DNA of 64,000 bases, taken from a virus. The translations under genes were made by a program, and so were the position numbers. Within the stretch, counting starts at the first letter, position 1; the number at the start of each line of letters is the position of its first letter. This document shows, one piece after another, positions 9,108-9,201 of the stretch. The DNA lies in IMG/VR virus record IMGVR_UViG_3300046007_003718, positions 46,396 to 110,395 of that record. One strand, written 5' to 3'. The notes beneath the pieces were generated by a model, which had not been told where the DNA came from, did no database searches, and saw nothing but the letters and a program-made list of their open reading frames with translations.

Positions 9108-9201
9108 TACCCCTAGCGGGAGTCGAACCCGCGATAAACTTCCGCGTAAGCCAAGCGTCCTTGTGCGTTACCGGCGTCGTTGCCGCTAGACCATTAGGGG
9201 C
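9108..9201 (-). tRNA. tRNA-like RNA (Glu-like body, anticodon arm replaced by a long hairpin, no encoded CCA)
   Basis: Acceptor GCCCCTA/TAGGGGT-A, D arm GTC-TAGCGGCAAC-GAC, T arm GCGGG-TTCGACT-CCCGC; no 5-bp/7-nt anticodon arm. Confidence 0.7.

What the first reader, a model, noticed from the sequence alone, without database searches (positions are those of the whole stretch)
9108..9201. tRNA-Glu-like RNA with the anticodon arm replaced by an extended hairpin
Seen: acceptor, D and T arms are intact, and the 5' part resembles actinobacterial tRNA-Glu as I recall it (GCCCC...GTCTAGCGGC...GACGCCG; 3' GGGGTA). The anticodon region is instead an irregular long stem, CCG-GTAA-GC-CAAG(GACG)CTTG-GC-TTAC-CGG. 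Preserved pairing argues against simple decay. It has its own TTGACT-16-TATAAT promoter, has no encoded CCA, and precedes a Cys-rich ORF. Inference: a non-decoding mimic, acting as a decoy for tRNA-targeting defences, a processing signal, or a substrate for the phage CCA enzyme.
Basis: partly seen in the sequence, partly recalled or inferred. Interest (0 to 1): 0.72.

Follow-up and report, generated by a model that had tools for sequence, protein, structure and literature searches.

The report
Anticodon-less tRNA-Glu-derived phage RNA module
A lake phage carries an RNA copied from a glutamate tRNA that keeps every part tRNA-trimming enzymes recognise but has a closed hairpin instead of an anticodon, so it cannot decode. 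It most likely marks where a long phage transcript is cut, between a structured non-coding RNA and the next gene.

Summary
On the minus strand, 9201..9108 is a 94-nt tRNA-shaped RNA. It has a perfect 7-bp acceptor stem, a 5-bp T stem, a consensus T loop and a tRNA-Glu-type D arm. A stable 13-bp hairpin with a GACG loop sits where the anticodon arm should be. It has no encoded CCA, a near-consensus promoter that starts at G1, and a conserved Cys-rich gene 15 nt downstream.

ARAGORN's calls contradict each other (Cys-ACA, or Val-GAC with an intron). No Rfam tRNA model reaches threshold. Cellular matches to its acceptor and T arm are tRNA-Glu genes.

The key result comes from the one retrievable relative, which is 97% identical in the flanks. 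In the same slot it carries a different, unalignable 66-nt tRNA-like module, also without an anticodon arm and without the promoter. So the extended arm and the Glu identity are not conserved. Only the acceptor/T-arm top half is.

The slot lies between a hammerhead-initiated ~240-nt structured RNA and the Cys-rich gene. My best reading (about 0.45) is a tRNA-like cut signal for RNase P and RNase Z, like plant mitochondrial t-elements or MALAT1-mascRNA. A decoy role, a 5' stabiliser and a pseudogene remain possible.

Earlier notes of this scan describe similar anticodon-less mimics in other phages. Nothing was tested experimentally, and only one relative was available.

The parts
9108..9201 (-). 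94-nt tRNA-Glu-derived, anticodon-less tRNA-like RNA (G1 = 9201, discriminator A = 9108, no encoded CCA)
   Evidence: Sequence. ARAGORN calls are inconsistent. No Rfam tRNA hit. tRNA-Glu affinity shown.
9195..9201 (-). Acceptor stem, 5' strand GCCCCUA. It pairs with 9109..9115 (UAGGGGU)
   Evidence: Read directly from the sequence. Both the MFE and centroid folds keep it.
9176..9191 (-). D arm: 3-bp stem GUC/GAC and a 10-nt loop UAGCGGCAAC with the GG elbow residues
   Evidence: Alignment to tRNA-Glu genes.
9142..9174 (-). Extended irregular hairpin in the anticodon-arm position: 13 bp, three single-nucleotide bulges, GACG loop
   Evidence: Folds at -12.5 kcal/mol, z = -2.8. Unique in the window. 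Absent from relative L002.
9133..9141 (-). 9-nt linker (AAGUUUAUC) in the variable-loop position
   Evidence: The compared tRNA-Glu genes have 4-5 nt here.
9116..9132 (-). T arm GCGGG-UUCGACU-CCCGC with a consensus T loop
   Evidence: 18-nt match to the T arm of the tmRNA/tRNA clan. Motif scan.
9208..9235 (-). Sigma-70-type promoter TTGACT-16-TATAAT. The inferred start is G9201
   Evidence: 11 of 12, best in 16 kb. Not present in L002. The -10 lies inside the swapped segment 9213..9107.
8846..9095 (-). Shine-Dalgarno AAAGGAGG (9095..9088) and the 78-aa Cys-rich ORF (9082..8846), 15 nt downstream of the mimic
   Evidence: It is a real protein family: 6 close and 5 distant homologues with conserved C30 and a C67-x-C-x-x-C72-x-GWR motif.
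9213..9451 (-). ~240-nt structured non-coding RNA closed by a long-range stem between its 5' end (made by the hammerhead cut) and 9226..9213, ending 11 nt before the mimic
   Evidence: Folds at -84 kcal/mol, z = -2.96, 0 of 200 shuffles as good. 96% conserved in L002. A 167-nt contig of a seawater metatranscriptome matches 9220..9382 at about 97%.
9446..9495 (-). Type I hammerhead ribozyme. The predicted cut lies between 9452 and 9451
   Evidence: Rfam RF00163 at 29.0 bits, below the gathering score of 34; E = 4.5e-5 locally and 0.0048 for the whole window. Conserved in L002 at 30.8 bits.
61968..63878 (-). Phage CCA-adding-enzyme-like protein of 636 aa (possible partner, link not shown)
   Evidence: Pfam PolyA_pol head, PolyA_pol_RNAbd, HD and tRNA_NucTran2_2 domains.

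Best explanation
The element is a tRNA-Glu-derived, non-decoding tRNA-shaped module that works in cis as a cut signal. It keeps what RNase P, the tRNA 3'-end nuclease (RNase Z or equivalent) and CCA-adding enzymes recognise: a 12-bp acceptor/T-stem stack, the T-loop/D-loop elbow, U at -1 and an A discriminator.

It sits at the junction between a hammerhead-initiated ~240-nt structured RNA and the mRNA of a small Cys-rich zinc-type protein. On read-through transcripts the hammerhead makes the 5' end of the non-coding RNA. RNase P cutting before G9201 would make its 3' end. The 3'-end nuclease cutting after A9108 would free the Cys-rich mRNA with a short leader.

This would leave a stable 94-nt tRNA-like by-product that can be CCA-tailed. 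In this phage variant a promoter also starts transcription exactly at G1, so only the 3' cut is needed for that transcript.

Shown: the anatomy, the origin from tRNA-Glu, the position, and replacement by another anticodon-less module in a relative. Inferred: all cleavage events and CCA addition.
For: 1. The acceptor, T arm and elbow are intact, while the anticodon arm is a closed hairpin.
2. Relative L002 is 96-97% identical on both sides. In exactly the same slot it carries an unalignable 66-nt module with an 8-bp acceptor stem, a 4-bp T stem and a consensus T loop (again 12 stacked pairs), no anticodon arm and no promoter. What the two modules share is only what end-processing enzymes need.
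3. The slot begins right after the closing stem of the upstream structured RNA and ends 15 nt before the Shine-Dalgarno of the next gene. No terminator-like site lies between them.
4. The other end of the same non-coding RNA is defined by a self-cleaving hammerhead, conserved in both phages.
5. In L002 the mimic has no promoter of its own, so it must be co-transcribed with the upstream RNA.
6. tRNA-like structures are documented as RNase P/Z cleavage signals for mitochondrial t-elements (PMC1920247) and MALAT1-mascRNA (PMC8457004).
Against: - No RNA ends were observed. The sequencing runs laid were contigs and did not cover the mimic informatively.
- Only one relative could be retrieved.
- In this phage the strong promoter starting at G1 makes an RNase P cut unnecessary for that transcript.
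- A bare acceptor/T minihelix would be enough for cutting. Yet this module keeps a full D arm and a stable 13-bp arm, which hints at something beyond a cut signal, such as stability or a trans role for the released RNA.
- Module swapping in an early, fast-evolving region is also what an arms-race decoy would show.
Confidence: 0.45

Rival explanations
1. The element is a trans-acting decoy or sponge. The released, CCA-tailed tRNA-like RNA would titrate a host factor that recognises the tRNA top half or 3' end, for example a nucleotidyltransferase or nuclease toxin of an abortive-infection system. It might work together with the phage's own CCA-adding/HD enzyme.
For: It has a strong promoter of its own that starts at G1. 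It lies in the early region of small fast-evolving genes. Two different modules sit in one slot in 97%-identical phages, which looks like arms-race turnover. The phage encodes a CCA-adding-like enzyme, yet no canonical tRNA is found in 110 kb.
Against: No defence or counter-defence gene was identified nearby. The relative's module lacks the promoter. The known phage tRNA countermeasures I am aware of supply cleavage-resistant decoding tRNAs rather than anticodon-less ones (own knowledge). The contig is only about 70% complete, so real tRNAs may lie elsewhere.
Confidence: 0.2
2. The element is a decaying tRNA-Glu pseudogene, a remnant of a former phage tRNA gene with no function of its own.
For: It is clearly derived from tRNA-Glu. 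It has an extra nucleotide at position 7/8, a U13xC22 mismatch, a lengthened variable region and a disrupted anticodon arm. The extended arm is not conserved in the relative.
Against: The damage is confined to the anticodon and variable region. All 12 acceptor/T pairs and the T-loop consensus are perfect, and the insert is itself a stable helix. An independent module in the relative shows the same pattern of intact top half and missing anticodon arm. The module is precisely framed between functional units.
Confidence: 0.15
3. The element is a 5'-terminal stabiliser. It would stay attached as a compact structured 5' end that protects the Cys-rich mRNA from 5'-end-dependent decay by RNase J or RNase E.
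For: The promoter places G1, already base-paired, at the very 5' end. It lies only 15 nt from the Shine-Dalgarno sequence. Both phages keep a structured module at this spot.
Against: Any hairpin would do, so this does not explain why the T-loop consensus and elbow residues are kept in two unrelated modules. A faithful tRNA shape would be expected to attract RNase P/Z rather than escape them.
Confidence: 0.1
4. The element is a real decoding tRNA with an unusual anticodon arm or a small intron, as ARAGORN suggests (Cys-ACA or Val-GAC).
For: ARAGORN reports it at default settings.
Against: The two ARAGORN models disagree. Each needs a mispaired or G.U-rich stem, lacks U33, and uses an A34 or a 9-nt intron at a non-canonical site. 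No Rfam tRNA hit was found. The only perfect 5-bp/7-nt stem-loop would destroy the T arm. The relative has no anticodon arm at all.
Confidence: 0.03

Closest known systems
t-elements of plant mitochondria (Forner et al. 2007, PMC1920247) and the mitochondrial tRNA-punctuation principle
   Same: These are tRNA-like structures without decoding function that sit at mRNA 5' or 3' ends and are thought to direct RNase P / RNase Z cleavage. Here, too, the element sits at a junction between two functional RNAs.
   Different: This element is in a bacteriophage and a bacterial host. It keeps a full D arm and a long closed arm. It is paired with a self-cleaving hammerhead at the other end of the excised RNA, and in this variant it has its own promoter. 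Cleavage is not shown here.
MALAT1-mascRNA / MEN-beta-menRNA (PMC8457004; Rfam RF01684)
   Same: A tRNA-like module directly 3' of a structured non-coding RNA. RNase P cleavage makes the ncRNA 3' end, and the small tRNA-like product is cut by RNase Z and CCA-tailed. The anticodon region is non-functional.
   Different: There is no sequence or model homology. RF01684 gives no hit in the window and 13.4 bits (E = 9.2) on L002. Those RNAs are eukaryotic and nuclear, whereas here the module is followed by an mRNA.
Canonical bacterial tRNA-Glu(UUC/CUC)
   Same: It shares the acceptor GCCCCUA/UAGGGGU with G1.U72 and A73, the D arm GUCUAGCGGC..GAC, the GACGCCG junction and the T arm GCGGGUUCGAnUCCCGC.
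   Different: It has no anticodon stem-loop. It also has about 15 extra nt forming a closed helix, a 9-nt rather than 4-5-nt variable region, and an extra nucleotide after position 7. It fails Rfam tRNA thresholds.
Bacterial and phage Y RNAs (YrlA; PMC4201824)
   Same: These are non-decoding tRNA mimics with T arm, D arm and acceptor-like stem. The M. smegmatis YrlA is cut by RNase P and CCA-tailed, and YrlA RNAs also occur in actinophages.
   Different: In YrlA the RNA ends lie at the anticodon-stem side and carry a Ro60-binding helix, and the gene lies next to rsr. Here the ends are at the acceptor stem, no TROVE/Rsr gene is in the 110-kb contig, and there is no Rfam YrlA hit.
tmRNA tRNA-like domain
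   Same: Acceptor stem plus T arm, with the anticodon arm replaced by a long helix. Rfam's best local hit is the tmRNA T arm.
   Different: The long arm is a closed 33-nt hairpin with no mRNA-like domain or pseudoknots. ARAGORN's tmRNA search is negative. The D arm is a full tRNA-Glu type.

Membership tests
Decoding tRNA (Rfam RF00005; ARAGORN cloverleaf) | 7-bp acceptor stem with a discriminator | tested here: met
   GCCCCUA/UAGGGGU plus A.
Decoding tRNA (Rfam RF00005; ARAGORN cloverleaf) | 5-bp T stem with a UUCRANY T loop, and a D loop with GG | tested here: met
   GCGGG-UUCGACU-CCCGC and a D loop UAGCGGCAAC.
Decoding tRNA (Rfam RF00005; ARAGORN cloverleaf) | 5-bp anticodon stem with a 7-nt loop, U33 and a purine at 37 | tested here: not met
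   Enumerating all 5-bp/7-nt stem-loops gives only one perfect candidate. It overlaps the T stem and has A at position 33. The ARAGORN models are mispaired and contradict each other.
Decoding tRNA (Rfam RF00005; ARAGORN cloverleaf) | Score at or above the curated family threshold | tested here: not met
   No tRNA-clan hit at gathering score. The best clan hit is 18.5 bits on 18 nt.
tRNA-like processing signals (t-elements / mascRNA type; a functional class) | tRNA-like acceptor/T-arm top half without decoding capacity | tested here: met
   The same holds for the module of relative L002.
tRNA-like processing signals (t-elements / mascRNA type; a functional class) | Placed at the boundary of two functional RNAs on one transcript | tested here: met
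   It lies 11 nt after the closing stem of the structured RNA and 15 nt before the Shine-Dalgarno of the next gene, with no terminator-like site between. L002 has no promoter in front of its module.
tRNA-like processing signals (t-elements / mascRNA type; a functional class) | RNA ends produced by RNase P / RNase Z at the element's borders | not testable with these tools
   Only contig-level run data were available and none covered the element informatively.
mascRNA-menRNA (Rfam RF01684) | Match to the covariance model | tested here: not met
   No hit in the window at E <= 10. L002 gives 13.4 bits against a gathering score of 42.5.
YrlA Y RNA | Encoded next to a Ro60/Rsr (TROVE) gene, with RNA ends in a Ro-binding helix at the anticodon side | tested here: not met
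   No TROVE match in the 110-kb contig, although the control genomes gave matches. The topology is the opposite. No Rfam hit.
tmRNA | tRNA-like domain joined to a tag reading frame and pseudoknots | tested here: not met
   ARAGORN -m is negative. Only the T arm matches the model. The arm is a closed hairpin.
Hammerhead ribozyme type I (RF00163), for the upstream partner element | CUGAnGA / GAAA core, three stems, GUC cleavage triplet, family threshold | tested here: inconclusive
   The full core and stems are present and conserved in L002. Scores of 29.0 and 30.8 bits are below the gathering score of 34.

The most novel reading that the evidence does not exclude
Lake actinophage-like viruses may carry an exchangeable slot for anticodon-less tRNA modules. 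Their released, CCA-tailed products would act in trans as decoys for host toxins or enzymes that attack or modify the tRNA acceptor end. The phage's own CCA-adding/HD enzyme would maintain them, and the hammerhead-flanked structured RNA next door would be part of the same RNA-based counter-defence unit.
Probability: 0.12. Interest if true: 0.8.

Novelty: new variant of a known kind. Interest (0 to 1): 0.55.

Why it matters
tRNA-shaped cut signals are established for organelles and for the nuclear MALAT1 RNA. I found no paper describing them as a routine device of bacteriophage transcripts. Here a tRNA-derived module and a hammerhead ribozyme frame one structured RNA, and the module has been swapped for an unrelated one between near-identical phages. 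If cleavage is confirmed, this gives three things:

- a natural 'ribozyme-RNA-tRNA' excision cassette, the design synthetic biologists use for guide RNAs;
- a concrete biological role for phage hammerheads, which has long been unclear;
- a warning that tRNA finders report such elements as odd tRNAs, here 'tRNA-Cys(ACA)', which inflates phage tRNA counts and codon-usage inferences.

Tried and rejected
**Searches for relatives that gave nothing**
- No DNA match for 8000..11000 in GenBank phages.
- No relatives of the downstream 171-aa protein, the Cys-rich family (alignments A1 and A4) or P0017 in IMG/VR.
- No tblastn match for P0002 or P0017 in GenBank phages.
- DNA patterns for the mimic's T arm/acceptor, for a D arm followed by a long gap and a T loop, and for the ncRNA core gave nothing in IMG/VR.
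- A hammerhead-core...T-loop pattern returned 16 loci. These were phage tmRNA genes or chance pairs with ordinary tRNAs, not cassettes of this kind.

The contigs of the other ten homologues of the Cys-rich protein (P0003-P0011) could therefore not be inspected. This is the main gap.

**Sequencing runs**
- The lake DNA runs hold the same strain only in fragments, with no variants at the mimic.
- A 401-nt contig in run X16 touches only the T arm and belongs to something else.
- No RNA contig covers the mimic. This is no evidence for or against its expression.

**Cys-rich protein**
- No Pfam or PHROG family.
- The AlphaFold model has pLDDT 55, too poor for fold search.
- ESM Atlas best score 0.76, uninformative.
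- I considered a RiPP-precursor reading because of the Cys/Ser/Thr-rich C-terminus next to a tRNA-Glu-like RNA. I dropped it because the N-terminal CGCGC is not conserved and the conserved residues look like a C...CxCxxC zinc site in a folded small protein. The relative's module is also not Glu-like.

**Other readings rejected**
- Y RNA: no TROVE gene.
- RtcB-based ligation of hammerhead products: no RtcB.
- A second T-arm-like motif at window 4061..4077 lies inside a coding frame.

**Other negatives**
- The extended-arm sequence is not repeated elsewhere in the window.
- The L002 module has no match in 401 Actinomycetota genomes, so its origin is unknown.

Full report
**What is there**

The window is the last 64 kb of a 110-kb IMG/VR virus contig, about 70% complete. 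The virus encodes DnaE-type polymerase, RecA, DnaB, DnaG, ThyX and tail-collar proteins. Its polymerase is about 31% identical to those of Gordonia, Rhodococcus and Mycobacterium myophages. The DNA recurs in lake-water metagenomes.

The element lies on the minus strand at 9201..9108. It has these parts:
- a perfect 7-bp acceptor stem (G1.U72), with an A discriminator and U at -1;
- a 5-bp T stem with the consensus loop UUCGACU;
- a D arm, GUC-UAGCGGCAAC-GAC;
- one extra nucleotide between the acceptor and U8;
- a 9-nt 'variable' linker.

In place of the anticodon arm there is a 33-nt closed hairpin with 13 pairs, three one-base bulges and a GACG loop. Alone it folds at -12.5 kcal/mol, z = -2.8. 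The full cloverleaf-like fold is within 1 kcal/mol of the MFE.

No CCA is encoded. It is the only tRNA-like gene ARAGORN finds in the 110 kb.

**It does not decode**

ARAGORN's default call is tRNA-Cys(ACA), which needs two non-pairs in the anticodon stem. With introns allowed, the same bases become tRNA-Val(GAC) with a 9-nt intron. Rfam gives no tRNA hit, only an 18-nt T-arm match. Enumerating every 5-bp/7-nt stem-loop gives one perfect candidate, which would destroy the T arm and lacks U33.

**It derives from tRNA-Glu**

A pattern of its acceptor plus T arm found four bacterial loci, three of them tRNA-Glu. BLAST against 401 evenly sampled Actinomycetota genomes hit 16 genomes, always over positions 66-94. 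Nine of the ten loci fetched from that search are tRNA-Glu(UUC). They also share the D arm and the GACGCCG junction.

**Context**

A TTGACT-16-TATAAT promoter (9235..9208) is the best match in the 16-kb early region, at 11 of 12. By standard spacing it starts at G9201.

Fifteen nucleotides after the discriminator comes AAAGGAGG, followed by a 78-aa Cys-rich ORF. The ORF is a real gene, with a 6-member close cluster and five distant homologues. Conserved features are W11, KPIY, C30, RIY, and C67-x-C-x-x-C72-x-GWR. No family or fold could be assigned.

Upstream on the same strand lies a complete type I hammerhead at 9495..9446. It scores 29 bits, just under Rfam's threshold, and is predicted to cut between 9452 and 9451. 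After it comes a ~240-nt RNA that folds far better than shuffles (z = -2.96). Its closing stem pairs the post-cleavage 5' end with 9226..9213. No terminator-like site separates these parts.

**The decisive comparison**

One relative could be fetched, a 2178-nt lake metagenome contig (L002). It is 96-97% identical across the upstream genes, the hammerhead, the structured RNA, the Shine-Dalgarno sequence and the Cys-rich gene.

Exactly the segment 9213..9107 is replaced by an unalignable 76-nt segment. That segment contains a 66-nt module with:
- an 8-bp acceptor-like stem (GUUCUCUG/CGGAGAAC);
- a 4-bp T stem with the loop UUCGAUU, again giving 12 stacked pairs;
- a possible short D-like arm;
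- only 14 nt where an anticodon arm would be.

ARAGORN finds no tRNA there. Rfam gives only weak tRNA-Sec and mascRNA similarities. The module has no promoter in front and no match in the 401 actinobacterial genomes.

So the extended arm, the Glu-type identity and the promoter are not conserved. What is conserved is a tRNA top half at this junction.

**Interpretation**

The features shared by the two modules are those read by RNase P, RNase Z and CCA-adding enzymes (established knowledge of these enzymes; compare PMC5389517 on the 12-bp branch). The position, between a ribozyme-started structured RNA and an mRNA, matches the logic of plant mitochondrial t-elements (PMC1920247) and MALAT1-mascRNA (PMC8457004).

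I therefore favour a cis-acting cut signal, at confidence about 0.45. The hammerhead would define the 5' end of the non-coding RNA. RNase P at G9201 would define its 3' end. A 3' tRNA nuclease after A9108 would free the Cys-rich mRNA. A 94-nt tRNA-like by-product could then be CCA-tailed, possibly by the phage's own CCA-adding/HD enzyme at 61968..63878. All cleavage steps are inference.

**Rivals**
- **Trans-acting decoy or sponge (0.2).** Favoured by the strong promoter and the swap in an early, fast-evolving region.
- **Pseudogene (0.15).** Disfavoured because damage is confined to the anticodon region in two independent modules.
- **5' stabiliser (0.1).**
- **True tRNA (0.03).**

Y RNA and tmRNA membership were tested and not met.

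**Limits**

The run data were contigs and said nothing about the mimic's RNA ends.

Earlier notes of this scan describe anticodon-less tRNA mimics, some interchangeable with hammerheads, in other phages. They agree with this reading, but they are unchecked AI notes and were used only as leads.

Noticed in passing
window 9446-9495 (-): A complete type I hammerhead ribozyme, 29.0 bits against a gathering score of 34, so Rfam's default scan misses it. It is conserved at 30.8 bits in L002:1482-1531.
   Followed up: partly
window 9213-9451 (-): A ~240-nt multi-stem non-coding RNA (z = -2.96) with no Rfam family. A 167-nt contig from a seawater metatranscriptome (run X19) matches 9220..9382 at about 97%, although the phage itself was found in lake water. 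Other marine, salt-marsh and wastewater RNA runs hold a similarly small share of the stretch.
   Followed up: partly
window 9500-9665 (-): A 166-nt segment carrying a small ORF (58-70 aa) that runs into the hammerhead is absent from L002. In L002 the hammerhead follows the 94-aa gene after about 50 nt. This is a second indel of the cassette between 97%-identical phages.
   Followed up: partly
window 9100-9109 and 9312-9321: A perfect 10-nt complementarity links an AU-rich loop of the structured RNA (AUUUAUACUA) and the mimic's last two residues plus trailer (UAGUAUAAAU). Only 7 nt pair in L002, and the loop varies in the X19 contig. It may be chance, since about 0.5 such pairs are expected per kb.
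   Followed up: partly
contig 40-60 kb (window 1-14000): An island of 50-65% G+C, full of small unassigned early genes, sits inside a phage of otherwise 37-44% G+C. The RNA cassette lies in it.
   Followed up: no
window 61968-63878 (-): A 636-aa CCA-adding-enzyme-like protein with an HD domain, in a contig where no canonical tRNA gene is found (110 kb, about 70% complete).
   Followed up: partly
window 8846-9082 (-): A small Cys-rich protein family of 11 sequences with an invariant C30, C67, C72 and a GWR C-terminal motif. It has no Pfam or PHROG family and is found only in metagenomes.
   Followed up: partly
window 52879-56333 (-): Three tandem paralogous genes (371-390 aa), each starting with a phage tail-collar domain.
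   Followed up: no
L007, L008, L010, L013, L014, L016-L019, L022: IMG/VR phage contigs picked up by chance carry what look like tmRNA genes, by sequence pattern only. The 5' end reads GGGGACGAAACGG...UUCGAC and the 3' end reads GGGUUCGACUCCC...CUCCACCA. ARAGORN was run there for tRNAs only, so tmRNA detection was not attempted.
   Followed up: no
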